This document shows, piece after piece, positions 2,789-50,454 of a stretch of DNA of 54,400 bases (position 1 is its first letter; every line of letters starts with the position of its first letter). Origin of the DNA: Candidatus Levybacteria bacterium RIFCSPHIGHO2_01_FULL_41_15 (GTDB lineage: Bacteria; Patescibacteriota; Microgenomatia; Levybacterales; UBA12049); NCBI GenBank assembly GCA_001782165.1, contig MFNV01000008.1, forward strand, positions 1-54,400, given 5' to 3'. The notes under the pieces are model-generated. The model worked only from the letters and a program-made list of their open reading frames with translations. It was not told the origin of the DNA and searched no databases. A program made the position numbers and the translations under genes.

Positions 2789-3211
2789 ATGTCATCGAAG
2801 TCAGGACACCCGCCAGTCGGCGGGCAGGCATTTTTTACAAGCGTTGGGTGCATGGATGGAAGGGTTCAGAAACCGGTTGCAGAGTTTGGAAGAAGTAAAT
2901 TTGGAGCGGAATATCCTGATACCATTACAGAGGCAGGTTTAGTAGGTTTATTGGCTTTAAGAAATCCAGAACAAAGCTTGCTTTCTTCTCTTGAGAAAAA
3001 AATAAATATCTCAATTCAAAGACACAACTCAAGAGGAATTGTAGTCCACGGGCATGAGGACTGCGCCGCGTCAGACGCGGTTTCGGAAAAGCAACATGAG
3101 AGGGATATATTAAAATCCGCAGAGCTTATAAAATTGATGTTTCCCGGAATTTCCGTTGTCCCTGTTTTTGTAAAAAGAAAGGGTGAGGCTTGGACAGTTG
3201 AGGAGTTGTAA
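2789..3211 (+). CDS. Beta-class carbonic anhydrase-like protein
   Basis: C-x-D-x-R (CMDGR) and H-x-x-C (HEDC) zinc ligands. Likely start ATG 2789. Confidence 0.8.
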   Translation: MSSKSGHPPVGGQAFFTSVGCMDGRVQKPVAEFGRSKFGAEYPDTITEAGLVGLLALRNPEQSLLSSLEKKINISIQRHNSRGIVVHGHEDCAASDAVSEKQHERDILKSAELIKLMFPGISVVPVFVKRKGEAWTVEEL

Positions 3212-3250
3212 TTAAAAGTAAATATTGTTTAATATTGTTTTTTTTCAAAT

Positions 3251-4012
3251 ATGAAAGTGACAGGGATTAAGACTCACAAGATTACCCCAAAGGATAAAGA
3301 TATCCGCAGGATTTTAGATAAGTACCTGCCTGCCGGCAGGCAAGGTGTTAAAAATCTCAAAGAAAAATCTGTTGTTGCAGTTGCCTCAAAAATAGTTGCG
3401 ATAACTGAGGGGCGGGTAGTTAAAATTGGCACAATTCATAAGGACGAACTAATAAAAAGAGAATCGGACTATTATCTTCCAAGATCTGAAAACCCGTACA
3501 ATGTAAGCCTGACAATTACCCGCGGGACGTTAGTGGCAACGGCTGGAATTGATGAATCGAATTCTGGAGGTTATTATGTTTTGTGGCCCAAAGATCCCCA
3601 GAAGTCGGCAAATAAAATCCGGGAATTTTTGCGCAAAAAGTTTAAAATTAAAAATTTAGGAGTAATTATTACTGACTCAAGAACTACACCCTTAAGGTGG
3701 GGAGTAACCGGAATTGCGATTGCCTACAGCGGGTTTACCCCTCTTAGAAATTACATCGACAAAAAAGACATTTTTGGAAAAAAACTTGAATTTACCAAAT
3801 TAAGTTTGATAGATAATCTGGCAAGCGCGGTGTTGGTTGTAACGGGAGAGGGAAATGAACAGACACCGATTGCAATAATTGAAGATGCGCCGGGAATAGT
3901 TTTTAAAGACAAAAACCCCTCAGAGGAAGAACTTTCTGAAATAAAAATTACTATGGATGAGGATTTGTACGGACCCTTTTTGAAAAGTGTCAGGTGGAAG
4001 AAGGGGGTTTGA
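3251..4012 (+). CDS. CofE-family gamma-glutamyl ligase
   Basis: VASKIVAITEGR, AGIDESN, LWPKDPQKSA, IITDSRTTPLRWG, GEGNEQTP motifs. Confidence 0.88.
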   Translation: MKVTGIKTHKITPKDKDIRRILDKYLPAGRQGVKNLKEKSVVAVASKIVAITEGRVVKIGTIHKDELIKRESDYYLPRSENPYNVSLTITRGTLVATAGIDESNSGGYYVLWPKDPQKSANKIREFLRKKFKIKNLGVIITDSRTTPLRWGVTGIAIAYSGFTPLRNYIDKKDIFGKKLEFTKLSLIDNLASAVLVVTGEGNEQTPIAIIEDAPGIVFKDKNPSEEELSEIKITMDEDLYGPFLKSVRWKKGV

Positions 4013-4013
4013 G

Positions 4014-4628
4014 TTATTGGGCCGAAGGGGTACCTGTATTTATAGGAGGTGGAGAGGCACCTTCTATCATAAATGTTGTGCCGATTGCGGTTTTGAGTAC
4101 TGACTTATCTGTGGTTTCTGAGGCGACTTGGGTTTTGGGCAAAAAGTTTATTTTCGCAAATTCCCCCGGCGTGCCTATCTGCCGAAAAGATATGACCGCA
4201 ACTGTTCCTCCCCCTGTGACTCCGCCTTCTGATAGGGGAACTGTTATTGCATAAGATACTGTCCCTTTTTGAGGATCAATTTTTTTGATGAGCTCGCCTG
4301 CATTTTTAAAGAAAGGCCCCGGTTCTATATCAAAATTGGCTATGTACGCTATATCATATGAAAGCTCAAGCTGGACTCCTGTAACTTTATTCCCTCCTGT
4401 CTGAATTGTAACTTCAGAAGAGTAGAGAGGAGAAGCGGAAACAGTAGAAGTTTGAATTGCTGAAACCGGAGGGCTTATTCGAAGAATGGTTTGGGCCAAG
4501 GAAAGGTTTTGTTCGGAAGGTTTTTGGGGAGGCGTAACAGGATTTTGCTTAGGAGTTAGCGCAATTGCCAAAAGAACAGCTGTAATACCGATTAATACAA
4601 GTATGAGAATTAATGTCCTTTTATGCAT
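4014..4628 (-). CDS. Membrane-anchored cohesin-domain protein
   Basis: N-terminal TM helix, then TGGNKVTGVQLELSYD...GTVSYA...GTVAVISF, a cohesin-like beta-sandwich pattern. Confidence 0.7.
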   Translation of the reverse strand: MHKRTLILILVLIGITAVLLAIALTPKQNPVTPPQKPSEQNLSLAQTILRISPPVSAIQTSTVSASPLYSSEVTIQTGGNKVTGVQLELSYDIAYIANFDIEPGPFFKNAGELIKKIDPQKGTVSYAITVPLSEGGVTGGGTVAVISFRQIGTPGEFAKINFLPKTQVASETTDKSVLKTAIGTTFMIEGASPPPINTGTPSAQ

Positions 4629-4736
4629 GATAATTAACAGTTAACAATTAACACTTAACAGTTATTTTCTTATTTTATGATTACTGAATCTCTCGTCTTT
4701 GTCAATTGTCATTAGTAAATAGTCAATAGTAAATTT

Positions 4737-6656: not shown

Positions 6657-6677
6657 TCTATTTTAGGATACCATATG

Positions 6678-8303
6678 CTACGGATTCTTAACAGCTTTAA
6701 GCCATAGAGTGAAATCAGTAGTATCTATCTTCCCATTTCCATTTATATCAGGCCAATACTGTGCTCCATCTGGAGCTTTATATGTATTATCCGGTTGTTT
6801 ATCTAATCCCTTAACAGCCCTAAGCCATAGAGTGAAATCAGTAGTATCTATCTTCCCATTTCTGTTTACATCAGCGGGCGGGGGTTTTATTGCAAACCAG
6901 GGATCTTGATGGCCTCCGGGTGCCAAATCAACGGATACATTATTTGCACCGGTAACAGTCCAGCCGGCAGGCGGATTTACCGAAACCGTATATTTTCCGG
7001 GAGGAATCAACCCACTTGAGTAGTAAGGCTCGGTGTTACAACCTACAGCCTTTAATGATCCAATGTTTTGGGGCCCGGTAATACTGATACTAACCCCGTC
7101 TTGATTGGTATAGTTAGTACAGCCAGTTGCAGTTGAGCTTGGATCCCGGATAAAAGATTCATTTGTGCAATTTAGATTACCATCGCCGTTGTCATCTTTA
7201 CAAATGCGCCCTTGGATAAATCCGTACGGCGTATAATGCCACCAGAGATCGGCATATCCGCCTGCAGGGACATTTACAATAACTCCGCCTTCGGGTGTTG
7301 GAGTAGCCGAGTGGCAATTCGTAGCATTGTAACAAAGAGTATAGCCAATACTATAGCCTGATGGAGCAGAAACGGAGACATAGTGACCAGTGGCAGACAC
7401 ATTGGTAAAAGAGTAAGGATTAGCAGTGGTAGTTTTTGTTGCAGGATTATCTAGGGAAACTGTTTCACTGGCTGGAGGGACTGCAGTACCATCATTACCC
7501 GGCATCAATACTTTATATCCCTGAATCGTACCGGTCTGCACAGCCGGAGACGAATTTGGTGGAGGACCTCCTATTGCCGGCGTCGAGGTTGGAGGGCCTC
7601 CTCCCGGATTCGGGGTTGGAGTTGGAGTTGGGGATGCAGGATTTGGCGGGGGTGGTGAGGTTGGGAGATTTCCTCCACAACTTGGAGTTGTGAAATAAAA
7701 TGTATTAGAGTGATAGGTATCTTTATCCGGACTATATGTATTGTCGCTATAGACGCTTTCAACCCACGCATTATAATTCGTATTGGTAGACAGTGTTACG
7801 GGAGGAGTAAAATTACTAGTATACTTGGTTGGTAGTTTCTGATCATATATCTCTTTCCAGTCCCAGTAGTTGCCATAAGATTTCCATTGAAATACATGAA
7901 ACCACTGTTCAATATATGTATACGTATAATTAGAACCCGTTCCGCCCATATAAGATAGCTGACTAGCCGGTGTCCATGTAAATGCTACCTGATTACATGT
8001 AAGATTGCTTTTGTTTAAATTAGTCGGATATTTTGATATACCGCCGGGGGCAGGAGGGACTGTTGATGCGCGTTGACGGTATTCGGTGGAACGCTGAACT
8101 GCAATTATCGTTGCGCCGACACCTATAACGAGAACAAGTACAAAAAGACCGATTAGGGTTCTTTTGGAGAAAAAAGAGACGAGTCTTAGAAACGGAGCGG
8201 GGAGAGGATTATCGTTTCTTTTGAAAGAAACCGGATCTTGGGCTGGCCCGCCTTGACCCGGCGAGGCAGGCGGGGAAGAAGTCTTTTCGGTATTCTCGTC
8301 CAT
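6678..8303 (-). CDS. Modular surface protein: TM anchor, Fn3-like and SdrD-B-like domains, Pro-rich linker, C-terminal dockerin-like duplicate
   Basis: TM helix then QRSTEYRQRAS; Pro-rich linker; DVNRNGKIDTTDF and DINGNGKIDTTDF repeats. Confidence 0.75.
   Translation of the reverse strand: MDENTEKTSSPPASPGQGGPAQDPVSFKRNDNPLPAPFLRLVSFFSKRTLIGLFVLVLVIGVGATIIAVQRSTEYRQRASTVPPAPGGISKYPTNLNKSNLTCNQVAFTWTPASQLSYMGGTGSNYTYTYIEQWFHVFQWKSYGNYWDWKEIYDQKLPTKYTSNFTPPVTLSTNTNYNAWVESVYSDNTYSPDKDTYHSNTFYFTTPSCGGNLPTSPPPPNPASPTPTPTPNPGGGPPTSTPAIGGPPPNSSPAVQTGTIQGYKVLMPGNDGTAVPPASETVSLDNPATKTTTANPYSFTNVSATGHYVSVSAPSGYSIGYTLCYNATNCHSATPTPEGGVIVNVPAGGYADLWWHYTPYGFIQGRICKDDNGDGNLNCTNESFIRDPSSTATGCTNYTNQDGVSISITGPQNIGSLKAVGCNTEPYYSSGLIPPGKYTVSVNPPAGWTVTGANNVSVDLAPGGHQDPWFAIKPPPADVNRNGKIDTTDFTLWLRAVKGLDKQPDNTYKAPDGAQYWPDINGNGKIDTTDFTLWLKAVKNP
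6698..6862. repeat. Perfect 42-bp direct repeat (6698-6739 and 6821-6862) encoding the two dockerin halves
   Basis: TAAGCCATAGAGTGAAATCAGTAGTATCTATCTTCCCATTTC occurs twice. Confidence 0.95.
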
Positions 8304-9015: not shown

Positions 9016-9020
9016 CTTTG

Positions 9021-9199
9021 CTAAAATTCTAAATCCAAAATTACAAATTCTAAATGGTTCGACAAGCTCACCATCCTGAGCAGCGTCGAAGGATAAATCA
9101 CAAATACGAAATTCTAATATCCGAAATAGTTTTTGAATTTTGAATATTTAAAATTTGATATTATTTGGAATTTGGTGCTTTGAGTTTGGAATTTAAATT
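9021..9199. repeat. Composite intergenic element: heptamer left arm, 49-bp palindromic core, inverted heptamer right arm
   Basis: Core 9050-9098 is identical to 48089-48137 and has 2 mismatches to 21528-21573. Arms are AAATCCA/AAATTCT-type and GGAATTT-type. Confidence 0.9.
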
Positions 9200-9889: not shown

Positions 9890-9964
9890 GAATTATGATT
9901 TTGGGACCAAACCCTCCTTCGCATAAAGCTTCGGAAGGGCAAGGAAATTATTTAAAATAAATGT

Positions 9965-17648: not shown

Positions 17649-18524
17649 ATGCAGGAAATTACACTTGAAGAGCTTCTTGAGGCCGGATGCCACTTCGGCC
17701 ATCAAGTAACACGCGGAAACCCCAAGGCAAGAGATTACATCTTCGAAGCTAGGGATAATATCCATATAATTGATTTGGAGAAAACCAAGAAAGGCCTTGA
17801 GGAGGCAGGAAGATTAATTTATGAACTTTCGAAACGGAATGGATCCTTACTTGTTTTGGGCACCAAAAGACAAGCGCAAGGAATAGTTGAAGAAGAAATA
17901 AAAAGAGCAAAACAACAGGTCTCAAGCAAAATTACAAACAGGATTTTCTATGTGACGAATAGATGGATTGGAGGGACTTTTACAAATTTTTCAGAAGTTG
18001 CAAAAAACTTCAAGAAGCTTAAAGATTTAACTCAAAAACTTTCAGATGAGGAGGAAAAAGCAAAATATACAAAAAAAGAGGTCGGGCTTTGGCAAAAAGA
18101 AAGGCAAAAACTTGAGCTGCTTTATGGAGGAATAGCCGATCTTGATAAAATTCCGGATGCAATTTATATAATAGATTCACATTTGGAGAATCTGGCTGTT
18201 TTGGAAGCAAGGAAAATGGGGGTTACGACTCTTGGGATTACCGATACAAATGCGGATCCTGAAATAATCGATTATCCGATTCCTGCCAACGATGATGCAA
18301 CAGGATCGATAAAAATAATTACAAAATATATAATAGATGCATGGATTGAGGGAAGACAAGACTCAGTTAAAAGTGAAAAAATAAAAGTTAAAAATGGTAA
18401 AGGAGGGTCAGAGAGTCAAAGTTCAAAAGATTCAAAGATAAACCCCACTTCGCGTAAAGCTTCGCGGGGCAAGGGAAAGGAGGCAAGTGGTAAAGGCAAG
18501 ACTCGAACTTCTAAAAAAACTTAG
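17649..18524 (+). CDS. rpsB: 30S ribosomal protein S2, with repeat-derived C-terminal tail
   Basis: LLEAGCHFGH, VGTK-like LGTKRQ, RWIGGTFTNF, DTNADP, PANDD. Confidence 0.97.
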   Translation: MQEITLEELLEAGCHFGHQVTRGNPKARDYIFEARDNIHIIDLEKTKKGLEEAGRLIYELSKRNGSLLVLGTKRQAQGIVEEEIKRAKQQVSSKITNRIFYVTNRWIGGTFTNFSEVAKNFKKLKDLTQKLSDEEEKAKYTKKEVGLWQKERQKLELLYGGIADLDKIPDAIYIIDSHLENLAVLEARKMGVTTLGITDTNADPEIIDYPIPANDDATGSIKIITKYIIDAWIEGRQDSVKSEKIKVKNGKGGSESQSSKDSKINPTSRKASRGKGKEASGKGKTRTSKKT

Positions 18525-20748: not shown

Positions 20749-21498
20749 ATGCAAAATTATCTTTCGACCCTGAGCTCAAGACCGAAGGGCAGCTCAAACG
20801 TAAAAAATAAAGATGGGATTTCAGTACTTAAAGTTTACAGCTCAACCTCAGGGGTTGAGCTTGCAAAAAGGGAGATATATAAAATTGTTGATGAAAGAAC
20901 GGCTCTTTTTTTATCCGGCGGATCCACCCCAAAACCTCTTTATCAAATTTTAGCAAAAGAAGGGAAACTCAAAGTCGGGGCAGTTGCAATGGTGGATGAA
21001 AGGTTTGGCCCGTCGTTTCATCAAAACAGTAATGAAAAAATGATTAAGGATACCGGACTTTTGTCATACCTTGAATCGAGAGATATTCCCCTTTACGGAA
21101 TTCTTAAAAATAAGTCGTTGGGAAAGACAGCGAGAGATTATGACAGTAAAGTTCGAAAGCTTTTAAATCAATTCCCCAAAAGCATTGCGATTTTAGGAAT
21201 AGGGGAGGATGGACACACCGCCAGCCTTCGGGCTGGAATTCAAAACTCAAAAGTTAAAAGTCAAAAGCTTGCAATAAGCATTAAGGATTTTCCGGGGGAG
21301 TTTAGGGAAAGAATAACATTAACCTTCCACGCGCTTTCTCAAATGGATTTATTAATAGTCTTGGTTTTTGGGAAAGAGAAGAGAAAAGCATTAAATCTTA
21401 TGTTTTCAGGAGGTCCGATTGGGGAAATTCCGGCAAGATTTCTGAATACCCCCAAAGTTTTAAAAAAGACTATTTTAATAACAGACCAAAGGGTATAA
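20749..21498 (+). CDS. pgl: 6-phosphogluconolactonase
   Basis: LSGGSTP, MVDER, SN..MI, LGIGEDGHTAS, RITLT, K; adjacent to zwf. Confidence 0.85.
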   Translation: MQNYLSTLSSRPKGSSNVKNKDGISVLKVYSSTSGVELAKREIYKIVDERTALFLSGGSTPKPLYQILAKEGKLKVGAVAMVDERFGPSFHQNSNEKMIKDTGLLSYLESRDIPLYGILKNKSLGKTARDYDSKVRKLLNQFPKSIAILGIGEDGHTASLRAGIQNSKVKSQKLAISIKDFPGEFRERITLTFHALSQMDLLIVLVFGKEKRKALNLMFSGGPIGEIPARFLNTPKVLKKTILITDQRV

Positions 21499-21675
21499 AA
21501 TAAATTACAAGCACAAAATTGCAAATCCTAAATGGTTCGACAAGCTCACTATCCTGAGTAGCGTCGAAGGATACATTCAAAATTTTAAATTCTAATATCA
21601 AAACAATTTTGAATTTTGAGCATTTGAAATTAAATATTACTTAGGATTTGGTGCTTCGAATTTAGAAATTTAATT
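21499..21675. repeat. Composite intergenic element with palindromic core
   Basis: Core 21528-21573; right arm ATTTGGTGCTTCGAATTTAG abutting the zwf ATG. Confidence 0.9.
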
Positions 21676-23106: not shown

Positions 23107-23243
23107 AAAAGATTTAAGACTTAAGATTTAAGAGTTATGACTAACTTTAAAAATTGTTCCATTGTTAAATTGCTGAATTGTTTATGGTAACCTTTGAGGA
23201 ATTTAATCCAGCCTTCGCTTAGAGCTACGGCGGATTTCATGCT

Positions 23244-25207: not shown

Positions 25208-25283
25208 AATAAATTGAAATTATATTACAAAGAAAACAAATATGCTATACTCGAATTACCCTTCGACAAGCTCAGGACAGGTT

Positions 25284-30931: not shown

Positions 30932-31022
30932 CCCGCCTTATCTTGCTTTGCGGCTTTTCATCCGCCAGCTGGCGGAACGCCGCAAAGAGCGATTGTTCGG
31001 CGGGCAAGGGGGGTGATTTTTT

Positions 31023-33624: not shown

Positions 33625-34290
33625 ATGAGGATTCCAAAAGCAATACTAAATTTAATTGAATCTTTTGAGAAATTGCCGGGGATTGGTCCCAAGACTGCCC
33701 AAAGACTAACATTTTATCTCTTGCATGTCCCTCAGGGTGAATTGGATAAGTTCTCAGAATCAATACAAAATCTAAAAAAAGGAACAGTTTTATGTTCTGT
33801 GTGTTTTGCAGTGGGGGAAAAAGACCCCTGTCATATTTGCGCTGATGAGAAAAGAGATAAATCAATAATTTGTGTTGTTGAAGAGGCTCTTGATGTTTTC
33901 TCAATTGAAAGAAGCGGAAAATTTGGAGGTGTTTATCATGTTCTTCATGGAAGAATAGATCCTCTTAACAGTATAGGCCCTGATGAAATTTATATCAGCC
34001 AGCTTCTTCAAAGAGTCAAAGAGACATCAAACGGAGTCAAAAGAGTCAAAGAAATAATTTTGGCGACTAATCCTACTATGGAAGGGGAAGCAACTGCAAT
34101 GTATATCGCGAAGAAACTTCGTGAACAATCAACAATTAATAGGCAATCACCGCAAATGCGGGATCCCGCTGCGGCGGGACAATCAACAATTACACGTATT
34201 GGGCGGGGATTGCCGATGGGAGCAGATATTGAATATGCAGACGAAATAACTTTACAAAGAGCGCTTGAGGGGAGACAGGTTTATGAGTAA
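33625..34290 (+). CDS. recR: Recombination mediator RecR, with repeat insertions
   Basis: LPGIGPKTAQRL, C4 zinc finger, YHVLHG, ILATNPTMEGEATA, GADIEYAD. Confidence 0.97.
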   Translation: MRIPKAILNLIESFEKLPGIGPKTAQRLTFYLLHVPQGELDKFSESIQNLKKGTVLCSVCFAVGEKDPCHICADEKRDKSIICVVEEALDVFSIERSGKFGGVYHVLHGRIDPLNSIGPDEIYISQLLQRVKETSNGVKRVKEIILATNPTMEGEATAMYIAKKLREQSTINRQSPQMRDPAAAGQSTITRIGRGLPMGADIEYADEITLQRALEGRQVYE

Positions 34291-36346: not shown

Positions 36347-37429
36347 ATGATTAAAAATAAACTGTTGTTAATTTTTATTTTAATTGTTGCTTTAGGGGTA
36401 ATTGCTTTTTTTGTAAGGCCCGATAAAACCCAAAAAGATGTGGCGGAAAAAATTACAGATCAGGCAGGAAATCAGATAGAGGGAGGAGGAATTCTTGATA
36501 GCCTTAATCCTCTTTCTATTGAAGAACTGAAAAAAGGAAACTACCCCGGAAGTGAATTTGTGATTGAACAAACTCTTGAACCGGGTTCAAATTACAGTCG
36601 CTACACTGCTTCCTACAAATCAGAAGGGCTTAAAATTTATGGTTTGTTAACAATTCCAAATGGGGAAAAACCTGAAGGTGGGTGGCCTGCTATTGTTTTC
36701 AATCATGGATATATTCCGCCTTCAGAATATAAAACGACAGAAAGGTATGTAGCTTATCTTGACGGTTTTGCAAGAAACGGTTATGTAGTTTTTAAACCCG
36801 ACTACAGAGGTCATGGGGAATCGGAAGGAAGCGCATCGGGTGCTTACGGATCAAATGACTACACGATAGATGTTTTAAACGCAGTCTCATCAGTTAAAAG
36901 ATTAAAAGTTAATAGTCAGCTTGCCCTGAGCGAAGTCGAAGGGTCAATCGTCAATCCTGATACTATCGGCATGTGGGGACATTCACTGGGAGGATTTATA
37001 ACTTTGAGAAGCATGGTTGCCAGTAAAGATATAAAAGCAGGGGTAATTTGGGCAGGAGTAGTCGCATCTTATCCTGATCTTCTATCAAGGTGGAGAAGAA
37101 ATCCGGCCTTTACGCCCCCTGCCGGAGCAAGAAGGTGGAGGGATGTTTTAATAGAAAAATTCGGCGATCCGGTTACCAATCCAACTTTTTGGAATTCAAT
37201 TTCTGCAAACTCATATTTGAAGGATATTTCAGGCCCACTACAGCTTCATCATGGGACAGCTGATTCTTCGGTCCCGATCGAATTTTCAGAGAAACTTGCT
37301 GGGCAAATGAGGCAGGCAGGGAAAGAGGTAGAATTTTATTCTTATCCGGGCGATAACCATAATCTTTCCCAAAACTTTAATACGGCAATGCAAAGATCAA
37401 TAGATTTTTTCAACCGCTATTTGAAATAA
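36347..37429 (+). CDS. Exported alpha/beta-hydrolase (S9 peptidase-like)
   Basis: N-terminal TM helix, NHGYIPP, DYRGHG, GHSLGG nucleophile elbow, HHGTAD..V, DNH. Confidence 0.88.
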   Translation: MIKNKLLLIFILIVALGVIAFFVRPDKTQKDVAEKITDQAGNQIEGGGILDSLNPLSIEELKKGNYPGSEFVIEQTLEPGSNYSRYTASYKSEGLKIYGLLTIPNGEKPEGGWPAIVFNHGYIPPSEYKTTERYVAYLDGFARNGYVVFKPDYRGHGESEGSASGAYGSNDYTIDVLNAVSSVKRLKVNSQLALSEVEGSIVNPDTIGMWGHSLGGFITLRSMVASKDIKAGVIWAGVVASYPDLLSRWRRNPAFTPPAGARRWRDVLIEKFGDPVTNPTFWNSISANSYLKDISGPLQLHHGTADSSVPIEFSEKLAGQMRQAGKEVEFYSYPGDNHNLSQNFNTAMQRSIDFFNRYLK

Positions 37430-42221: not shown

Positions 42222-42231
42222 ATTTGAGAAA

Positions 42232-42858: not shown

Positions 42859-42918
42859 AAGCGCTTAAATTCGTCCACCCCGCCTACCTTAGGGGTGGGA
42901 TCTGCTATAATTTCTTCT

Positions 42919-43812
42919 ATGAGTTTGTCCATCGGGATTGTGGGGCTTCCAAATTCCGGGAAATCGACATTATTTAATGCGCTTCTTAAAAGGCAGATCG
43001 CCCAAGTGGGGGAGTATCCATATACCACGATTGAGCCGAATGTGGGAGTGGTCGAGGTGCCGGATGAAAGACTTGACAAGATTTCGGAAATTTCAGGAAT
43101 CACAAAAAAAGTTCCGGCAGGAATTAAATTTATTGATATTGCTGGTCTTATTAAAAACGCTCACAAAGGAGAGGGGCTTGGAAATAAGTTTCTGGGGCAC
43201 ATTCGGGAAGTTGACGCGATTGTTCATATTGTACGCGCTTTTGATTCTTCGGCTAGCTCAGGACAAGCAATCCCACATGTAATGAGTAATATTGATCCGG
43301 TCCGTGATATCGAAGTTGTCAATCTTGAATTAGAGCTTGCTGGAATTAAGAAACCGGCAATCTATGTTTTAAATGTCTCTGAAAGTGATTTGAAAAGAGA
43401 TTTTAATCTCCCCTTTGAGTATATTAAGATCAGTGCAAAACTTGAGGCGGAATTATCAGATCTTTCGGAAAAAGAGCAAAAGGAATATCTAAAAGAACTT
43501 GGTGTTAGCGAGTCAGCCCTTGATCAAATCATTCTTGTATCCTACAAACTTTTAGATCTTATTACTTTATTTACAATCGCTGGTGGTCGGCAGATCCAAG
43601 CCTGGCCTATTAAAAAAGGAACAAAGGCAACTGGGGCGGCAGAAATGGTTCATACCGATTTTGAAAAAAAATTTATAAAAGCAGAAGTCGTCTCTTTTGA
43701 AGATTTTGTTTCGAATAATGGTTGGAAGGGGAGCAGGGAAAAAGGAAAAACGCGAATCGAAGGCCGAGAATACATCGTAAAAGACGGGGATATTATGGAG
43801 TTTAAAATTTAA
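42919..43812 (+). CDS. ychF: YchF/Obg-family ATPase, shortened
   Basis: GIVGLPNSGKST, YPYTTIEPN, DIAGL, G.GLGNKFL.HIRE, TGS tail GREYIVKDGD. Likely start ATG 42919. Confidence 0.93.
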   Translation: MSLSIGIVGLPNSGKSTLFNALLKRQIAQVGEYPYTTIEPNVGVVEVPDERLDKISEISGITKKVPAGIKFIDIAGLIKNAHKGEGLGNKFLGHIREVDAIVHIVRAFDSSASSGQAIPHVMSNIDPVRDIEVVNLELELAGIKKPAIYVLNVSESDLKRDFNLPFEYIKISAKLEAELSDLSEKEQKEYLKELGVSESALDQIILVSYKLLDLITLFTIAGGRQIQAWPIKKGTKATGAAEMVHTDFEKKFIKAEVVSFEDFVSNNGWKGSREKGKTRIEGREYIVKDGDIMEFKI

Positions 43813-44521: not shown

Positions 44522-44935
44522 ATGCGAGCGTACGAATTAATATTAGTCTTAAGATCGTCTTTAAAAGATGATGAAAGGAAAAAACTTCTTGGGACGGTTA
44601 AGGATCTTTTGGGGAAACCTGAAATAACCCGTGAGGATGAGTGGGGACAAAAGCCTCTATCTTACCCTATTAAAAGACAGATCGCAGGTTTTTATGTTGA
44701 CATAGATTTTGAAACAGAAACAGAAATCCCAAATGATTTTGAAAAAAAACTTCTGGCAAATGATAATGTCTTAAGACACCTGCTACTACGAAATAAAAAA
44801 TTAAAAATAAAAAATAAAAAAGAGGGCACAAAACAGAGTTTAAAAGTTAAAGAGAAAGAAGAAAAAGAGTTTGCCAAACCCAAAAGATCTATAAAAAAGG
44901 CAAAGAAAGCTACAAAAAAGACTAGAAAGAAATAG
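44522..44935 (+). CDS. rpsF: 30S ribosomal protein S6
   Basis: YELILVL, WGQKPLSYPIK, VLRHLL. Confidence 0.95.
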   Translation: MRAYELILVLRSSLKDDERKKLLGTVKDLLGKPEITREDEWGQKPLSYPIKRQIAGFYVDIDFETETEIPNDFEKKLLANDNVLRHLLLRNKKLKIKNKKEGTKQSLKVKEKEEKEFAKPKRSIKKAKKATKKTRKK

Positions 44936-45012
44936 TTTACAAATTGTTAAAATTGTTATATTGTTGAATTGTTAAACTAGCTACTAGCAATTAGTAACTA
45001 GCCACTAGTTTT

Positions 45013-45561
45013 ATGGCAAGAAGTCTTAACAGAGTTCAATTAATCGGAAACCTCACGAGAGATCCTGAGCTTCGGTATACACCCAACGGAACTGCAGTTT
45101 GTTCTTTTGGTGTTGCTACAAACAGAAGTTGGACAACCGAATCTGGAGAAAAAAGAGAGGAAGCAGAATTTCATAGAATTGTGGCATGGAACAAACTTGC
45201 CGAAATCTGCTCTCAATTTTTAGTAAAGGGAAGGAAAGTTTATCTTGAGGGAAGGCTTTCGACAAGAACATGGAACGCTCAAGACGGGACACAGAAAAGC
45301 ACAACAGAAATAATAGTTTCTGACATGATCCTTTTGGATTCAAGAAGAACCGAGGAGGAAAAAATTGATGAAGAACCCGAGAGTCAGAGCTTAGAAAAGC
45401 CGGACAAGACTGCTAGCCTTGATGTGAAGCGGGCCGGGCAGGCAGGGAGTCAAAGTTTAAAAACAGAAAAAAATTTAAAGAAAAAGAAAACGAAGGAAGA
45501 CTCAAAGGAAGAGGATGAAGGCAAAGATGAGGACGTAGCCCCCGAAGATATCCCCTTTTAA
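45013..45561 (+). CDS. ssb: Single-stranded DNA-binding protein
   Basis: LNRVQLIGNLTRDPELRYT, EGRL.TR.W, C-terminal DIPF. Confidence 0.98.
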   Translation: MARSLNRVQLIGNLTRDPELRYTPNGTAVCSFGVATNRSWTTESGEKREEAEFHRIVAWNKLAEICSQFLVKGRKVYLEGRLSTRTWNAQDGTQKSTTEIIVSDMILLDSRRTEEEKIDEEPESQSLEKPDKTASLDVKRAGQAGSQSLKTEKNLKKKKTKEDSKEEDEGKDEDVAPEDIPF

Positions 45562-45975: not shown

Positions 45976-46010
45976 AATTTACCAATAACTAATAACTAAT
46001 AATTATATAA

Positions 46011-46769: not shown

Positions 46770-46771
46770 AT

Positions 46772-48064
46772 ATGGAAAGAACCAGAAAAATTCAGATTAT
46801 TGTTTTGATACTCGTCGCATTCTTCATAGGTTACTGGGCAGGTACAGTAAAAATCTCCTTTGACTGGAAAAATTATAAACCCGTTTTATCGATTTCAGGC
46901 AAACAACCGCCGCCATCCCTGTCGAATCTTGATTTTTCAAACTTCTGGGCGGTGTGGGAAAATGTTGAGAGCAAATACTATGATAAATCAAAAATTGATC
47001 CCTCTAAAATGCTAAACGGAGCAATAAACGGCATGCTTGCGACACTTTCCGATCCGTATACAGTATATTTGCCTCCTGTCTCAAATACGGATTTCAAGCA
47101 GGGGCTTGCGGGACAATTTGAAGGAATTGGTGCCGAGCTTGGCTTGAAAGATAAAAAAATCACAGTAATTTCTCCTTTGGATGACAGCCCGGCCCAGAAA
47201 GCTGGTATAAAACCTGAAGATATAATTCTTAAAGTAGACGGTGAGTCAACCGAGGGATGGAGCATATCACAGGCAGTTTCAAAAATCAGGGGGAAAAGGG
47301 GAACACCCGTTGTCCTGACTGCTCTTCATAAAAACACAAAAAATCCAACCGATATAAAAATAATAAGAGATACCATAACTGTCAAGAGCGTTGACGGATA
47401 CGTCAAAAAGATAAGCGAGATTAAAGGAATTAAGAAAACTTCTGTTCTATCTTCTCATCAAAACGATGAAATAATGTACATTAAGCTTGCGCAATTTGGG
47501 GATCAGACCAATAAAGATTGGCTTGCGCTTGTAAACAGCCTGAATTTAAAAGCTCAAGACCCTTCGGCAAGCTCAGGGCAAGATAAAAATTTTAGGGGAA
47601 TAATTTTGGATCTTCGCAACAATCCGGGAGGTTATCTTACAGACGCATCCTTTATTGCAGGCGAATTTTTAAGAGAAGGCCTTCCGGTTGTTATACAGGA
47701 GCAAGGAACAGGGGATAGGACAACCATATCGGTTTTGCGAAGAGGTCTTTTTCTAAGCTTTCCTCTTGTTGTTCTTATCAATAAAGGAAGCGCTTCGGCA
47801 AGTGAAATAGTATCAGGAGCGCTTAGGGATTATGAGAGGGCAAAGCTTGTAGGAGAGACGACATTCGGAAAGGGAACAATACAACAGGCAGATGATCTTG
47901 GCAACGGAGCAGGTATTCATATAACAATTGCCAAATGGCTCACACCCAAAGGCAATTGGGTAAACGGGAAAGGTTTGGAACCTGACATTTCTGTTAGTCT
48001 TGATAATAAAGACCAAAGTCACGACAGCCAGCTTGAAAGGGCAATAGAAGAGCTGGTAAAATAA
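46772..48064 (+). CDS. ctpA: C-terminal processing peptidase S41 with PDZ domain
   Basis: DPYT, GIGAEL, LDLRNNPGG, SASASEI, TFGKG. Confidence 0.93.
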   Translation: MERTRKIQIIVLILVAFFIGYWAGTVKISFDWKNYKPVLSISGKQPPPSLSNLDFSNFWAVWENVESKYYDKSKIDPSKMLNGAINGMLATLSDPYTVYLPPVSNTDFKQGLAGQFEGIGAELGLKDKKITVISPLDDSPAQKAGIKPEDIILKVDGESTEGWSISQAVSKIRGKRGTPVVLTALHKNTKNPTDIKIIRDTITVKSVDGYVKKISEIKGIKKTSVLSSHQNDEIMYIKLAQFGDQTNKDWLALVNSLNLKAQDPSASSGQDKNFRGIILDLRNNPGGYLTDASFIAGEFLREGLPVVIQEQGTGDRTTISVLRRGLFLSFPLVVLINKGSASASEIVSGALRDYERAKLVGETTFGKGTIQQADDLGNGAGIHITIAKWLTPKGNWVNGKGLEPDISVSLDNKDQSHDSQLERAIEELVK

Positions 48065-48240
48065 ACTCTAAATCCAAAATCACAAATCCTAAATGGTTCG
48101 ACAAGCTCACCATCCTGAGCAGCGTCGAAGGATAAATTCAAATGTTCAAAATAATAAATTCAAAACGTTTTGTATTTTGGTTATTTGATTTTTAATATTA
48201 ATTGGAATTTGGTGCTTTGAATTTGGGATTTAAATTGATT
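48065..48240. repeat. Composite intergenic element with palindromic core
   Basis: Core 48089-48137 is identical to 9050-9098. Confidence 0.9.
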
Positions 48241-49341
48241 ATGAGACGTTTAATTATTTCAGTATTGATACTCGTAGTAATTTTATTTGGTTTGAGTGCT
48301 TTAGTAAATAAATTCTCCGACATTAATCTGCCCAAAAGTGAAGTACAGCCTGAAAAAGTAAAAATTGTAAAGGAAGAGTCGGTTGCTGTCGATGTCGTTA
48401 AGAGGGTCGGACCCTCTGTTGTTACCGTTGTTGAAAGTTCTCAAAGAAGTTTTGGATTCGGTTCATTTGATGTTCCTGATACAGAAGAAAGAAATATCGG
48501 TTCAGGTTTCATTATCTCCGAAAACGGCTTAATAGTTACAAACAAACATGTTGTATCAGATAAAGAAGCAACTTACCAAATAGTAACAAGCGACGACAAA
48601 AAATACTCGGTTCAAAGAATTTTTAGAGACCCCTTAAATGATATTGCAATTCTTAAGGTAAATTTTTCCGATAATCCGGGGACTCGACTTAAGTCTGTCG
48701 AGCTGGGGGATTCATCAAAACTTGAAGTAGGACAATTCGTTATTGCCATCGGAACTGCACTTGGGAAATTCAGAAATACTGTAACGACAGGGGTCGTCTC
48801 GGGTTTGGGCCGGGGAATTACCGCAGGATCGGAGTTTGAGGGATTTGTTGAAAGGCTTGATAATGTTATCCAGATATCAGCGGCTGTTAATCCGGGCAAC
48901 TCAGGGGGTCCTTTGGTAAACTCCGCAGGACAGGTAATAGGGGTGAATACTGCAATTGCAAGGGGAGGTCAAAACATCGGATTCGCGCTTCCTATAAATA
49001 CAGTAAAAGAGGCGGTTTCAAATTTCAACGAACATGGAGAAATAGTAAGGCCCTATTTGGGAGTAGTTTACAGGATAGTAACAAGAGATGTTGCGCTTCT
49101 TAATGAAGTTCCGCAGGGAGCACTCGTTCAAGAGGTAATTGAAGGGTCGGGAGCAGACAAAGTGGGAGTAAGACAAGGGGATATAATAACGACGGTTGAG
49201 GGAAAAAAAATCGAGGAGATAAATGATTTGGCAGACACAATAAAAGATAAAAAGGTGGGAGATCGTCTGACTCTTGTCATTTGGAGGGATGGAAAAACTC
49301 AGGAAGTTAGAGCAACTTTGTCATCCGCCCCGAACAACTAG
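48241..49341 (+). CDS. htrA: HtrA/DegP-family serine protease, one PDZ domain
   Basis: GSGFII, TNKHVV, DIAILK, AVNPGNSGGPL. Likely start ATG 48241. Confidence 0.93.
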   Translation: MRRLIISVLILVVILFGLSALVNKFSDINLPKSEVQPEKVKIVKEESVAVDVVKRVGPSVVTVVESSQRSFGFGSFDVPDTEERNIGSGFIISENGLIVTNKHVVSDKEATYQIVTSDDKKYSVQRIFRDPLNDIAILKVNFSDNPGTRLKSVELGDSSKLEVGQFVIAIGTALGKFRNTVTTGVVSGLGRGITAGSEFEGFVERLDNVIQISAAVNPGNSGGPLVNSAGQVIGVNTAIARGGQNIGFALPINTVKEAVSNFNEHGEIVRPYLGVVYRIVTRDVALLNEVPQGALVQEVIEGSGADKVGVRQGDIITTVEGKKIEEINDLADTIKDKKVGDRLTLVIWRDGKTQEVRATLSSAPNN

Positions 49342-49374
49342 TAACTAGTATCTAGTAACTAGTATAATAGTGGA

Positions 49375-50454
49375 ATGGTTAGAATCCAGAAAAACATTTC
49401 ACTTAAAAATCTCAGCAATTACAGAATCGGAGGTCCTGCCTCTTTCTTTGCAGAAGTTAAGAATCCCGAAGAACTTTCGCAAGTTTTAAAAGACCGAAAG
49501 AAACTTGAAAACCCAAAAATTTTTGTTCTTGGAGAGGGAACAAATGTTCTGTTCAAAGACAGTGGATTTGACGGATTGGTAATTAAGAATAAAATTAACG
49601 GAATTAAGATATTAGACGACAGAGAGTCAAAGAGTTCCTCCTTCGCTAAAGCTTCGAAGGACAAGCAGAGAGTCAAAGGATCAGAGAGTCAGAGAGTCAA
49701 AGTTGGGGCAGGAGTTCTGTTGGAGGATTTGCTTGCCTTCTGCATTGAAAATTCTTTGTCTGGTTTTCAGTGGGCAGGAGGACTTCCGGGGACATTAGGC
49801 GGAGCAGTCCGGGGGAATGCCGGCGCATTTGGAGGAGAAATAAAAGACAACATAATAGAGGTAGAAAGTTTGGATAGCAGTACCTTAGAAATTAAGAAAA
49901 GAAGCGTGAATCAGTGCAAATTTGGATACAGGACAAGTGTTTTTAAGAGTCAAAAAGAGTCAGAGTTTAAGAGAGTCAGAGAGTCAAAGAGTCAGAGTGA
50001 GAAAGAGTCAGAGTCTAAAAGAGCTGCGGGACAGGAGATTATCATTTCCGCAACTTTAAGTTTAACAAAGCGTAATAGAGATGATATCGCTTCGAAAATT
50101 CAGGAGAAAATAGATTACAGGAACTTAAAACATCCTCTTGAATATCCGAATATAGGAAGTATTTTCAAAAATATTCCCGTAGAGAAAGTTCCTCAAAAAA
50201 TATTAAAACAATTAAGAGACTCGATAAAAAATGATCCTTTTCCGATTCTACCAACAGCAAAGCTTCTGGCTGTCGCGAGTCTAAAAGGGAAAAGACAGGG
50301 AGGTGCAATGGTTTCCAAGAAGCATCCTAATTTTATTATAAATTTTAACAATGCCACATCAGAGGATGTAAAGACTCTAATCCACAAATTAAAAGAGATT
50401 ATAAAATCAAAATACGGGATAGAACTGGAAGAAGAAATCTCAAACCTCGGGTGA
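49375..50454 (+). CDS. murB: UDP-N-acetylenolpyruvoylglucosamine reductase, with two repeat insertions
   Basis: IGGPA, LGEGTNVL, PGTLGGAV.GNAGAFG, FGYRTS.F, GSIFKN, HPNFIIN. Confidence 0.95.
   Translation: MVRIQKNISLKNLSNYRIGGPASFFAEVKNPEELSQVLKDRKKLENPKIFVLGEGTNVLFKDSGFDGLVIKNKINGIKILDDRESKSSSFAKASKDKQRVKGSESQRVKVGAGVLLEDLLAFCIENSLSGFQWAGGLPGTLGGAVRGNAGAFGGEIKDNIIEVESLDSSTLEIKKRSVNQCKFGYRTSVFKSQKESEFKRVRESKSQSEKESESKRAAGQEIIISATLSLTKRNRDDIASKIQEKIDYRNLKHPLEYPNIGSIFKNIPVEKVPQKILKQLRDSIKNDPFPILPTAKLLAVASLKGKRQGGAMVSKKHPNFIINFNNATSEDVKTLIHKLKEIIKSKYGIELEEEISNLG

What the first reader, a model, noticed from the sequence alone, without database searches (positions are those of the whole stretch)
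2809..50021. Palindromic elements inserted in frame into many housekeeping proteins, resembling Rickettsia palindromic elements
Seen: short GC-rich palindromes from a few families lie inside ORFs without breaking frame. Examples: carbonic anhydrase 2809-2824 (PPVGG), cofE-like 3325-3345 (PAGRQG), surface protein ~8244-8278, rpsB 18443-18470, pgl 20761-20790 (STLSSRPKG), gnd tail ~24488-24572, proS 26419-26464, hydrolase 27780-27848, recR 34150-34180, S9 hydrolase ~36919-36944 (LALSEVEGS), ychF ~43245-43263 (SSASSGQ), ssb ~45413-45447, ctpA ~47559-47580 (PSASSGQ), murB 49637-49666. The same families occur between genes: TTCGACAAGCTCA/TGAGC..GTCGAA at 9050, 21528, 25259 and 48089; CCTTCGC.AAAGCTTCG at 9912 and 23211; CCGCAAATGCGGGATCCCG at 34150 and, inverted, 50573. 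Known: Rickettsia RPEs and REP/RAYT systems spread similarly. Inference: an active or recent selfish-repeat system that is adding peptide to essential enzymes. No RAYT transposase is in the window; small GIY-YIG nucleases like the one at 491 are a candidate mobiliser.
Basis: partly seen in the sequence, partly recalled or inferred. Interest (0 to 1): 0.82.

Follow-up and report, generated by a model that had tools for sequence, protein, structure and literature searches.

The report
Tiny GC-rich repeats inserted inside genes
A Levybacteria (candidate-phyla-radiation) genome carries several families of 15-40-base GC-rich repeats that have landed, in frame, in loops and tails of housekeeping proteins. 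One 24-base family is almost letter-identical in metagenome contigs of 31-73% G+C and on viral contigs, and I found no paper that describes it.

Summary
For example, TTCGRC-N1-5-GCTCA occurs 11 times against about 0.2 expected.

Alignments show window-specific in-frame extra segments in ychF, ctpA, murB, recR, the S9 hydrolase, cofE, proS, the DHH protein and gnd.
- Eight were compared with orthologs.
- gnd (a C-terminal tail) was compared only with a solved structure.

Close relatives carry the same families at other sites of the same genes, including one unit nested inside another. Insertion is therefore recurrent.

- Only about half of the elements fold better than shuffled sequence. The commonest family is a 24-nt unit, Y-CCTTCGRCAAGCTCAGGRCAAG-C, with a 3-bp covarying stem, not a palindrome.
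- Several sites are at gene ends, not inside domains.
- The GIY-YIG gene sits in an intervening sequence of the 16S rRNA gene, and its homologs are not flanked by the repeats.

The 24-nt unit occurs in at least 120 metagenome contigs and 23 viral contigs. In low-GC contigs its coding copies all lie in sense orientation. It tends to lie in 7-nt tandem arrays.

Best reading: non-autonomous mini mobile repeats, closest to cyanobacterial small dispersed repeats, Rickettsia RPEs and yeast mitochondrial GC clusters. The mobilising enzyme is unknown.

The parts
842..869 (+). Family A-like stem-loop (CTAATCC-TTCGATTTTACTCA-GGATTAG) directly after the 16S rRNA 3' end
   Evidence: Sequence. DNA fold z = -2.5.
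1093..1125 (+). Terminator-like hairpin CCACCC/GGGTGG followed by a T run; its loop is a family A-like 15-mer (ATTCGGTATTACTCA)
   Evidence: Sequence.
2809..2830 (+). Family C hairpin CCCGCC-AGTC-GGCGGG with a CAGGCA tail, in the N-terminal stretch (aa 19-24, HPPVGG) of the beta-carbonic-anhydrase-like ORF 2753-3211. It lies before the Pfam domain; the start codon is uncertain.
   Evidence: Fold z = -3.5. Not compared with orthologs.
3326..3346 (+). Family C 21-nt insert holding the perfect 16-nt palindrome TGCCTGCCGGCAGGCA, in the cofE-like gene (LPAGRQG)
   Evidence: 7-aa gap in ortholog L016. The same palindrome is inserted in ychF of L001. Fold z = -2.1.
8247..8275 (-). GC-rich element in the N-terminal region (aa 9-20) of the dockerin-type surface protein 6678-8303
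   Evidence: The fold is not better than shuffles (z = -0.9). Not compared with orthologs.
9016..9199 (+). Copy 1 of a foldback (MITE-like) intergenic repeat of about 175 bp. The family A double stem-loop at 9054-9094 is enclosed by AT-rich imperfect inverted arms of about 30 nt.
   Evidence: Three-copy alignment at 80% mean identity, core nearly identical. Fold z = -2.5.
9912..9944 (+). Family B unit, intergenic (CCCTCCTTCGCATAAAGCTTCGGAAGGGCAAGG)
18443..18474 (+). Family B unit in the C-terminal extension of ribosomal protein S2 (aa 265-274; the Pfam S2 domain ends at aa 235)
20761..20790 (+). Family A-type unit in inverted register (TGAGC...CGAA closed by CCC/GGG), at codons 5-14 of the pgl ORF and upstream of the conserved domain
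   Evidence: The fold is not significant. Translation is unproven.
21499..21675 (+). Copy 2 of the ~175-bp intergenic foldback repeat (core 21532-21572)
23210..23234 (+). Degenerate family B-like unit, intergenic
24488..24572 (+). Composite of family A (24495-24516), an A-like piece and family E (24545-24571). Together they form a 28-aa C-terminal tail of 6-phosphogluconate dehydrogenase.
   Evidence: The PDB homolog 6vpb ends 4 residues after window aa 308. Family E has two copies.
25258..25281 (+). Family A 24-nt unit just upstream of the probable proS start codon (ATG at 25284). Its tail supplies an AGGA.
   Evidence: Ortholog L191 starts at the position of window Met15.
26430..26465 (+). 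Family E 36-nt insert (ASSRGGQAGQAG) in the anticodon-binding domain of ProS
   Evidence: 12-aa gap in ortholog L191.
27780..27848 (+). GC-rich insert of about 63-69 nt (VPPAKPSRRREASLWRSAVAT) in the DHH-family protein, set inside an (AAAACTC)n heptamer array
   Evidence: Unique among 118 orthologs. It lies at a hot spot (two adjacent alignment blocks) where 29 other orthologs carry other inserts. Array.
30961..31013 (+). Intergenic GC-rich hairpin cluster (perfect 16-nt palindrome TCCGCCAGCTGGCGGA, plus a ...CGGCGGGCAAGGGG tail) between dnaX and ybaB
   Evidence: Fold z = -2.7.
34150..34182 (+). Family F double mini-hairpin (PQMRDPAAAGQ) in the linker between the Toprim and C-terminal domains of RecR, flanked by CAATCA direct repeats
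   Evidence: Gaps in 4 orthologs and in PDB 3vdp. Fold z = -3.3.
36919..36944 (-). Family A unit in antisense orientation (LALSEVEG) in the S9 / alpha-beta hydrolase
   Evidence: 13-aa gap in 3 orthologs. Motif.
43245..43268 (+). Family A unit (SSASSGQ) in YchF, directly after beta-strand 108-114
   Evidence: 5-aa gap in the 14 best-matching orthologs shown; the only rare insert at that column among 80 aligned ychF sequences. pLDDT below 50 at residues 121-123 of the AlphaFold model.
45429..45447 (+). Family C/E-like tail motif (GCGGGCCGGGCAGGCAGGG; RAGQAG) in the disordered C-terminal tail of SSB
   Evidence: This region is hypervariable in all orthologs, so insertion cannot be shown.
47559..47582 (+). 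Family A 24-nt unit (DPSASSGQ) in the S41 protease CtpA
   Evidence: The only rare insert among 43 orthologs. Gap against CtpB 4c2c.
48065..48201 (+). Copy 3 of the intergenic foldback repeat (core 48093-48133)
   Evidence: Summed contig depth rises to about 40-200 here in four metagenome runs.
49636..49665 (+). Family B 30-nt insert (SSFAKASKDK) in the FAD-binding domain of MurB, next to (CAGAGAGT)n repeats
   Evidence: Codon alignment with L002 gives exact 30-nt boundaries. Gap against PDB 3tx1.
50573..50591 (-). Family F, intergenic: an exact inverted copy of the 19-mer found in recR

Best explanation
The window holds at least two dozen copies of several families of very small GC-rich repeat units. 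They are 15-40 nt long and sit in a genome of 39% G+C. I read them as non-autonomous mobile DNA that is copied into new sites again and again.

**Shown**
- The units are extra relative to orthologs.
- The same families sit at different sites of the same gene in related genomes.
- One unit is nested in the loop of another.
- Units also lie between genes, inside a ~175-bp foldback element, in the loop of a terminator-like hairpin, and in 7-nt tandem arrays.
- The commonest family (A) has fixed ends, Y-CCTTCGRCAAGCTCAGGRCAAG-C (24 nt), a 3-bp closing stem that covaries, and a conserved 13-nt loop. It is found almost unchanged in contigs of 31-73% G+C and on viral contigs.

**Inferred: what survives in genes**
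- Inside genes, only copies that add whole codons without a stop, in tolerant loops, linkers or tails, are kept.
- Selection favours the sense orientation and the frame that reads Pro-Ser-Ala/Thr-Ser-Ser-Gly-Gln, a small and flexible peptide. This inference rests on the orientation and frame counts in coding copies.

**Inferred: how the units move**
- A trans-acting enzyme specific for sequence and structure probably moves the units as single-stranded DNA. This would resemble the way HUH/Y1 transposases handle REP and IS200/IS605 ends.
- Targets would be exposed single-stranded DNA: hairpin loops, slipped tandem repeats and the lagging-strand template.
- The enzyme was not identified.

**My odds**
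- Recurrent insertion of mobile mini-repeats: about 0.8.
- A single-strand, hairpin-recognising enzyme as the motor: about 0.35.
For: **Enrichment over shuffles:**

**Lineage-specific in-frame inserts:**

**Independent insertions in relatives**
- In ychF, at least 14 of 80 CPR genomes carry GC-rich rare inserts at about 9 sites. Insert G+C is 0.50-0.76 against gene G+C of 0.38-0.51.
- In the DHH protein, 66 insert instances among 118 orthologs cluster at two hot spots.

**Defined unit**
- Position -1 is a pyrimidine in 133 of 135 copies, and position +1 is C in 99 of 135.
- The closing pair covaries: C-G 81, T-A 25, C-A 22, T-G 5; Fisher p = 1e-9.
- 24-nt inserts are seen in L001, L002, and L029/L046/L058.
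- A 24-nt unit is nested between TTCGG and CAAGCTCA of an older unit in L001.

**Spread**
- Near-matches, mostly on multi-copy plasmid records, in Sphingobium, Moraxella, Comamonas, Gloeothece and Nostoc.

**Orientation and frame**
- 60 sense against 15 antisense in spanning ORFs of 150 aa or more. The frame PS[AT]SSGQ is used in 36 of the 60 sense copies. All 18 such copies in contigs of 43% G+C or less are sense.

**Single-strand targets**
- 13% of copies sit between inverted repeats of 7 bp or more, against 3% at control positions.
- 7-nt arrays: 7 of 24 window elements abut an array, against 2.15 expected. 4 of 135 metagenome copies do so against 0.4 expected, and only at period 7. A copy lies inside (GGGAACA)n in Gloeothece.

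**Loop location:** the YchF model has pLDDT below 50 at the insert.

**No shared neighbour gene** among 143 element-bearing loci, which fits action in trans.
Against: - No transposition event, empty-site polymorphism or enzyme was observed. In four metagenome runs the contigs of this organism all carry the inserts.
- No target-site duplication or common target motif could be fixed. Boundaries are ambiguous by 1-5 nt at the divergence available.
- Family A single units are thermodynamically weak hairpins, about -1.7 kcal/mol and no better than shuffles. Structure-dependent recognition therefore rests on covariation of one base pair.
- No Y1/HUH or other transposase was found among the 57 ORFs of the window that were scanned against Pfam.
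- The sense bias could be produced by selection on the peptide alone.
- Near-identity of a 24-mer across phyla is hard to reconcile with any known transposase family, whose end sequences diverge quickly.
Confidence: 0.7

Rival explanations
1. There is no dedicated enzyme. The units spread by copy-choice: replication or repair template switching, or microhomology-mediated capture of a short single-stranded fragment from one copy into another site. Stalling at hairpins and slipped 7-nt repeats would favour this. These genomes may also lack full mismatch repair (not checked here).
For: - Junctions show 2-5 nt of microhomology: CAAGA on both sides in ctpA, GC in the nested L001 copy, CAATCA in recR, AAAACTC in DHH.
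- No target-site duplication of constant length was seen.
- The units are associated with tandem arrays.
- Some inserts are partial units, such as the net 15 nt in ychF.
- No linked gene was found.
Against: - The ends of family A are sharply defined in 135 copies from very different genomes.
- Full 24-nt units recur.
- Template switching should copy variable lengths and any sequence, not the same 24-mer across phyla.
Confidence: 0.17
2. Small stand-alone GIY-YIG nucleases, such as the one at 491-748, are the autonomous partners that nick at, or home with, these hairpins.
For: - In L128 a GIY-YIG gene is bracketed by a 27-bp direct repeat and carries two A-like stem-loops at its 3' end, TTCGAGTGCCTCA and its inverse, closed by 6-bp stems.
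- An earlier unchecked note of this scan (e1-2760878) reports a GIY-YIG ORF flanked by exact inverted CTGAGCTTGTCGAAG.
- In the window, a family A-like hairpin lies about 95 nt downstream of the GIY-YIG ORF.
Against: - The window's GIY-YIG ORF lies inside an intervening sequence of the 16S rRNA gene that has its own terminal repeat, CCCCTCTTTTTG / AAAAAGAGGGG. An ORF-less second copy of that sequence lies at 96-192.
- Its homologs sit in the same 16S site, or another 16S site, or next to a tRNA gene, with no family A motif within 300 nt in six distinct loci.
- Only 2 of 143 element-selected loci hold such a gene, against 1 of 80 control loci.
Confidence: 0.08
3. The motifs are functional signals kept by selection rather than selfish DNA. 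Possible roles include DNA-uptake sequences, binding sites of a conserved factor, terminators, or selected flexible linkers. On this reading they arise in place.
For: - The loop sequence is strongly conserved across taxa.
- There is orientation bias.
- Some intergenic copies look like terminators or supply a ribosome-binding site (1093-1125 and 25258-25281).
Against: - They are insertions, not substitutions, relative to orthologs.
- Positions differ between close relatives.
- Copies nest inside one another.
- They fall in unrelated genes, in low-confidence loops.
- No Rfam family matches.
Confidence: 0.04
4. Chance resemblance, or an assembly or adapter artefact.
For: Single 20-nt matches in some databases are individually marginal, for example the Pseudomonas phage tail-fibre hits with E = 0.05.
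Against: - Enrichment is 20-100-fold over shuffles.
- Independent assemblies of several runs give identical contigs across the inserts.
- The copies are in frame and carry the gene on both sides.
- They are present in finished plasmids of cultured strains.
Confidence: 0.01

Closest known systems
Small dispersed repeats (SDR1-8) of heterocyst-forming cyanobacteria (Elhai et al. 2008, Genome Res 18:1484; PMC2527708). The paper is not held, so its features are recalled from memory. It is cited as reference 43 in PMC3116915.
   Same: - Units of 21-27 nt (here 24 nt).
- Dispersed in many copies.
- Found inside other repeats, in hairpins and in heptamer tandem arrays.
- Occasionally inside genes.
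- No constant target duplication; mobilising enzyme unknown.
- A family A copy lies inside (GGGAACA)n on a Gloeothece PCC 7822 plasmid, and a weaker match lies on Nostoc PCC 7120 pCC7120alpha.
   Different: - Found here in CPR bacteria and, for family A, in contigs of 31-73% G+C and on viral contigs.
- Many copies are translated within housekeeping proteins.
- I could not compare the sequences with the published SDR consensus, so identity with one of the SDR families is neither shown nor excluded.
Rickettsia palindromic elements (RPE), as summarised in PMC10969869
   Same: - Repeat families inserted in frame into unrelated metabolic and housekeeping genes.
- They add a peptide without destroying the gene.
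- They occur in small, AT-rich genomes.
- No transposase is known.
   Different: - RPEs are about 150 bp and encode a conserved peptide of tens of residues. These units are 15-40 nt (5-13 residues).
- About half of these units are not palindromic.
- Family A is not restricted to one genus or phylum.
GC clusters of yeast mitochondrial DNA and the related translational-bypass elements (review PMC8811140)
   Same: - Short GC-rich, often palindromic, mobile clusters in an AT-rich genome.
- Mostly intergenic, but also in-frame insertions in a protein gene (var1).
- Units are reshuffled into composites.
- The mechanism is unresolved.
   Different: - GC clusters are organellar.
- They have terminal AG/TAG repeats taken as target duplications.
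- In Magnusiomyces the inserts are bypassed by the ribosome, whereas here all in-gene copies keep the frame.
REP / REPIN elements with RAYT transposases (PMC3116915)
   Same: - Short GC-rich stem-loops in high copy number.
- A conserved tetranucleotide next to the stem (here 3' CAAG).
- Inverted doublets (the three long intergenic copies).
- Presumed single-strand mobilisation in trans.
   Different: - REPs are extragenic and have a GTAG or CGTC head and a conserved stem.
- Here the loop is conserved and the stem is only 3 bp.
- Many copies here are intragenic.
- No RAYT was found in the window.

Membership tests
Rickettsia palindromic elements (RPE) | Length about 100-150 bp, encoding a conserved peptide module | tested here: not met
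   Inserts are 15-39 nt (63-69 nt in the DHH protein). The largest composite is 85 nt. RPE size is from PMC10969869.
Rickettsia palindromic elements (RPE) | In-frame insertion into unrelated protein-coding genes | tested here: met
   Nine host genes carry extra in-frame segments: eight against orthologs, gnd against a solved homolog only.
Rickettsia palindromic elements (RPE) | Palindromic sequence forming a stable hairpin | tested here: inconclusive
   6 of 20 folded elements have z below -2. The family A, B and E units do not.
Rickettsia palindromic elements (RPE) | Sequence homology to RPE-1 to RPE-10 | not tested
   No RPE sequences were at hand.
REP / REPIN-RAYT | Extragenic location | tested here: not met
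   At least nine copies are inside coding sequence.
REP / REPIN-RAYT | Conserved GTAG (or CGTC) head next to an imperfect palindrome | tested here: not met
   The family A consensus from 135 copies is Y-CCTTCGRCAAGCTCAGGRCAAG-C, with no GTAG or CGTC and a 3-bp stem.
REP / REPIN-RAYT | Inverted doublets (REPIN/BIME) | tested here: met
   Three intergenic copies hold two inverted units that pair.
REP / REPIN-RAYT | A RAYT (Y1 transposase) gene in the genome, flanked by the repeats | tested here: inconclusive
   None among the 57 ORFs of the window scanned against Pfam.
Small dispersed repeats (SDR) of cyanobacteria | Unit of 21-27 nt with fixed ends, in many dispersed copies | tested here: met
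   24-nt unit: positions -1 and +1 are conserved and the flanks beyond them are not. At least 120 metagenome hits.
Small dispersed repeats (SDR) of cyanobacteria | Nested in other repeats or hairpins and in heptamer tandem arrays | tested here: met
   Nested copy in L001. Inside the ~175-bp foldback element. Heptamer arrays.
Small dispersed repeats (SDR) of cyanobacteria | Sequence identity to a published SDR family | not testable with these tools
   The paper (PMC2527708) is not held.
MITE | 50-500 bp, terminal inverted repeats, target-site duplication | tested here: inconclusive
   Applies only to the ~175-bp intergenic repeat. Its imperfect AT-rich arms pair (z = -2.5), but no target duplication was identified. 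The 15-40-nt units have neither terminal inverted repeats nor a constant duplication.

The most novel reading that the evidence does not exclude
The 24-nt family A unit, Y-CCTTCGRCAAGCTCAGGRCAAG-C, may be a single pan-bacterial and phage-borne mobile element, and the smallest known. On this reading it is propagated by a still unrecognised, widely shared mechanism that inserts it into exposed single-stranded DNA: hairpin loops, slipped heptamer arrays and the lagging-strand template. The abundant locus-specific 7-nt tandem arrays of these genomes would be either its preferred landing pads or its footprints.
Probability: 0.2. Interest if true: 0.9.

Novelty: new variant of a known kind. Interest (0 to 1): 0.72.

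Why it matters
If these units are mobile, they push the lower size limit of mobile DNA to about two dozen bases. They would also show a route by which essential proteins of minimal-genome bacteria keep gaining surface loops and tails.

The near-identity of one unit across contigs of very different base composition and on viral contigs asks for a conserved recognition machinery that nobody has named.

There is a practical side as well:
- The inserts inflate and diversify CPR protein sequences.
- They create spurious 'hypothetical proteins' with peptides such as PFDKLRA, LRQAQGK and LSLSKG.
- They break alignments and may confuse gene callers and binning.

The link to 7-nt tandem arrays gives a concrete handle for experiments.

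Tried and rejected
- **Whole-genome census and relatives search.** No genome-wide count, no strand-versus-replication analysis and no search for RAYT/HUH genes in the window's own genome could be made.
- **Rfam.** No family matched at gathering thresholds or at E up to 10 on the long intergenic element.
- **Literature.** A full-text search for the motif and its peptides (PFDKLR, SLSNHE, RQAHHE, PELVEG, LRQAQG, TTCGACAAGCTCA) gave only two irrelevant hits. Searches combining CPR or Patescibacteria with palindromic, hairpin or in-frame gave nothing relevant. The Elhai 2008 paper is not held.
- **GIY-YIG association.** A profile search of all loci found 3 homologs. A viral-contig scan found 1. 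Loci of four homologs from the large protein database showed rRNA or tRNA contexts and no adjacent family A motif.
- **Guilt by association.** Clustering ORFs within 2 kb of 147 family A copies gave no recurrent neighbour, apart from one group of related viral contigs.
- **Population polymorphism.** Contigs of four metagenome runs laid on 42.8-50.5 kb showed no variant lacking an insert. Only assembled contigs at about 4x depth were available.
- **Universal-RNA origin.** The idea that family A derives from a universal RNA (tRNA T-loop or D-arm, tmRNA ends, RNase P) was considered from memory. The resemblances are limited to 5-8 nt, so I dropped it untested.
- **7-bp target duplication.** A constant 7-bp duplication as the origin of the heptamer arrays fits DHH, recR and the Gloeothece copy. 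It does not fit the cleanest 24-nt events in L001 and L002, so I do not adopt it.
- **Fuzzy matching.** A fuzzy-regex census with indels timed out and was replaced by Hamming scans.

Full report
**Setting.** The window begins with the 3' part of a 16S rRNA gene. It continues with tRNA-Cys, tRNA-Ile and about 55 mostly co-oriented housekeeping genes at 36-49% G+C, with positive GC skew throughout. The best ortholog matches are Candidatus Levybacteria, at 68% identity for YchF, so this is a Microgenomates (CPR) genome. Genome-wide statements are therefore not made.

The motifs are strongly over-represented:
- TTCGACAAGCTCAGG with up to 2 mismatches: 6 hits against 0.15 in shuffles.
- TTCGRC-N1-5-GCTCA: 11 against about 0.2, compared with 19 hits in 1.2 Mb of related CPR loci.
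- Family B (CCTTCGC-N-TAAAGCTTCG-NN-GGGCAAGG): 3 against 0.03.
- Family E (GCTCCCTCCAGAGGCGGGCAGGCAAGG): 2 against 0.
- The 19-mer of recR occurs a second time, exactly and inverted, at 50573.
- Perfect GC-rich hairpins with stems of 7 bp or more: 11 against 2.5 expected.

**Are they insertions?** A scan for YchF relatives returned 80 named CPR loci with 10-kb flanks. These also hold orthologs of ssb, ctpA, murB, recR, the S9 hydrolase and cofE.
- Alignments show that the window alone has the extra residues in ychF (5 aa), ctpA (7), murB (10), recR (about 11), S9 (13) and cofE (7).
- Codon alignment gives exact DNA inserts, for example 30 nt (TCCTCCTTCGCTAAAGCTTCGAAGGACAAG) in murB.
- ProS has a 12-aa insert relative to a 55%-identical ortholog. 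The same alignment places the true start at Met15, so the unit at 25258 lies just upstream of the gene.
- The DHH-family protein has a 21-aa insert unique among 118 orthologs of 54-91% identity. It sits at one of two hot spots where dozens of lineages carry different inserts.
- Gnd runs 28 residues past the end of its closest solved homolog.
- RecR, MurB and CtpA show gaps at the same places against solved structures.
- An AlphaFold model of YchF (mean pLDDT 83.7) has its lowest internal confidence at the insert, directly after strand 108-114.
- Not verified as insertions: the sites in the carbonic-anhydrase-like ORF, pgl and the surface protein (N-terminal stretches before the conserved domain), rpsB (C-terminal extension) and ssb (hypervariable tail).

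**Are they palindromes?** Only in part. Folding as single-stranded DNA beats dinucleotide shuffles for the elements in CA, cofE and recR, the long intergenic copies, 842-869 and 30961-31013. It does not for the family A single units, or for the rpsB, gnd, proS and ssb elements. Family A is better described as a conserved 13-nt loop closed by 3 base pairs and followed by CAAG.

**Recurrent, independent insertion.**
- In ychF, L001 carries AMPAGRQ, made by the same 16-nt palindrome TGCCTGCCGGCAGGCA that sits in the window's cofE.
- L002 carries a 24-nt family A unit at another site.
- L001, L002 and L003 share an older unit at a third site. In L001 a second 24-nt unit is nested exactly in the loop of that older unit.
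- L004 has an 87-nt composite of several units.
- Across 80 CPR genomes, at least 14 carry rare GC-rich inserts in ychF at about 9 sites.

**Family A outside this genome.**
Contig G+C ranges from 31 to 73%.
- In 135 distinct copies the base before the 22-mer is a pyrimidine in 133 and the base after is C in 99, while flanks further out are not conserved. The unit is therefore 24 nt.
- The pyrimidine covaries with the R of GGR: C-G 81, T-A 25, C-A 22, T-G 5; p = 1e-9.
- 75 copies lie in ORFs of 150 aa or more: 60 in sense and 15 in antisense. Among the sense copies, the frame PS[AT]SSGQ is used 36 times, LRQAQGK 16 times and PFDKLRA 8 times. In contigs of 43% G+C or less, all 18 are sense.
- 13% of copies are flanked by inverted repeats of 7 bp or more, against 3% at control positions.
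- Near-matches, several per record in most, occur on plasmids of cultured Sphingobium, Moraxella, Comamonas, Gloeothece and Nostoc.
- The Pseudomonas phage matches are single and marginal.

**Link to heptamer arrays.**
- Thirty-six of the window's 69 tandem arrays have period 7, and several lie in frame inside genes.
- Seven of 24 GC-rich elements abut an array, against 2.15 expected (P = 0.005).
- In the metagenome set, 4 of 135 copies adjoin an array of 3 or more copies at period 7, against 0.4 expected. No other period is enriched.
- On the Gloeothece plasmid the unit sits between two GGGAACA repeats.
- This matches what I recall of the cyanobacterial small dispersed repeats.

**The three long intergenic copies.** They are whole-spacer copies of a ~175-bp foldback element with AT-rich imperfect inverted arms. 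The family A double stem-loop sits inside.

**Candidate mobiliser.**
- The GIY-YIG ORF lies in an intervening sequence at the tip of 16S helix 44. The 16S sequence resumes after the intervening sequence and ends at about 840.
- The intervening sequence has its own terminal repeat, which recurs around an ORF-less insert at 96-192.
- Homologs lie in the same or another 16S site, or beside a tRNA gene, without family A motifs nearby.
- One distant homolog (L128) does carry A-like hairpins.
- No transposase domain was found in the ORFs of the window that were scanned. No gene family recurs next to the 147 metagenome and viral copies.
- No insert-free variant was seen in four metagenome runs, but only low-depth contigs were available.

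**Interpretation.**
- The data support recurrent insertion of very small, non-autonomous repeat units. Selection then leaves, inside genes, only whole-codon, stop-free, mostly sense-oriented copies in loops, linkers and tails.
- Several features point to recognition of a defined single-stranded structure by a trans-acting enzyme: the fixed ends, the covarying closing pair, nesting in a loop, and a preference for hairpin loops and slipped repeats. This would resemble REP or IS200/IS605 ends. It is an inference, and the enzyme is unknown.
- Enzyme-free copy-choice is the main rival.

**Comparison with known systems.** The closest described systems are:
- the 21-27-nt small dispersed repeats of cyanobacteria (recalled from memory; the paper is not held);
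- Rickettsia RPEs (PMC10969869), which are about 150 bp;
- yeast mitochondrial GC clusters (PMC8811140).

I found no paper describing these elements in CPR bacteria or the family A sequence.

**Earlier notes of this scan.** They report the same phenomenon in this and other CPR genomes. I used them as leads only and re-derived the points cited here.

Noticed in passing
window 1-840: The 16S rRNA gene carries two intervening sequences with the same terminal inverted repeat (CCCCTCTTTTTG / AAAAAGAGGGG). One at 96-192 has no ORF. One at 455-764, at the tip of helix 44, holds the GIY-YIG ORF 491-748. The Rfam hit stops at 464, but the 16S 3' end (GGATCACCTCCTT) is at 828-840. Homologous GIY-YIG inserts sit at the same 16S site in other Levybacteria, and near the 16S 5' end in a Beckwithbacteria genome (L234).
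   Followed up: partly
window, 36 arrays, e.g. 10948-10981, 27171-27201, 27329-27361, 33063-33124, 29596-29618, 21240-21267: Tandem repeats of period 7 dominate (36 of 69 arrays), each with its own unit sequence. Several lie in frame inside housekeeping genes (thyA, the DHH protein, prsA, dnaX, pgl) and so also add peptide. Heptamer repeats are known from cyanobacteria and Beggiatoaceae (PMC4679880 and PMC4692102; titles and abstracts only).
   Followed up: partly
window 9016-9199, 21499-21675, 48065-48201: Three whole intergenic spacers are copies of one ~175-bp foldback (MITE-like) element with AT-rich imperfect inverted arms. The right half contains promoter-like TTGAAT...TATTT sequences ahead of the downstream gene.
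   Followed up: partly
window 49942-50023 (murB): A second and larger in-frame insertion in murB (about 19-23 aa, KESE-rich) is made of 8/16/24-nt tandem repeats (AGAGTCAG). It is absent from L001 and L002.
   Followed up: partly
L018:1-700: A small GIY-YIG gene follows a complete tRNA-Lys gene directly. It is surrounded by partial copies of that tRNA gene that carry a GC-rich hairpin insert in the D-loop region.
   Followed up: no
L128:40-1110: A GIY-YIG gene is bracketed by a 27-bp direct repeat upstream of a gene resembling hsdS (type I restriction specificity subunit; named from its sequence, not scanned). It has two family A-like stem-loops in its 3' end. The hsdS-like ORF itself has an in-frame family A unit (PSTSSGQA).
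   Followed up: no
window 44599-44855: Summed contig depth of about 2100 in metagenome runs X4 and X5, against 4-40 elsewhere. The region holds an (AAATAAA)n array inside ORF 44522-44935. The cause was not examined.
   Followed up: no
window 42895-43812: YchF here and in L001-L003 is a short form (about 305 aa). It lacks about 40-60 residues, including part of the helical insertion domain, that are present in most other CPR orthologs (340-380 aa).
   Followed up: no
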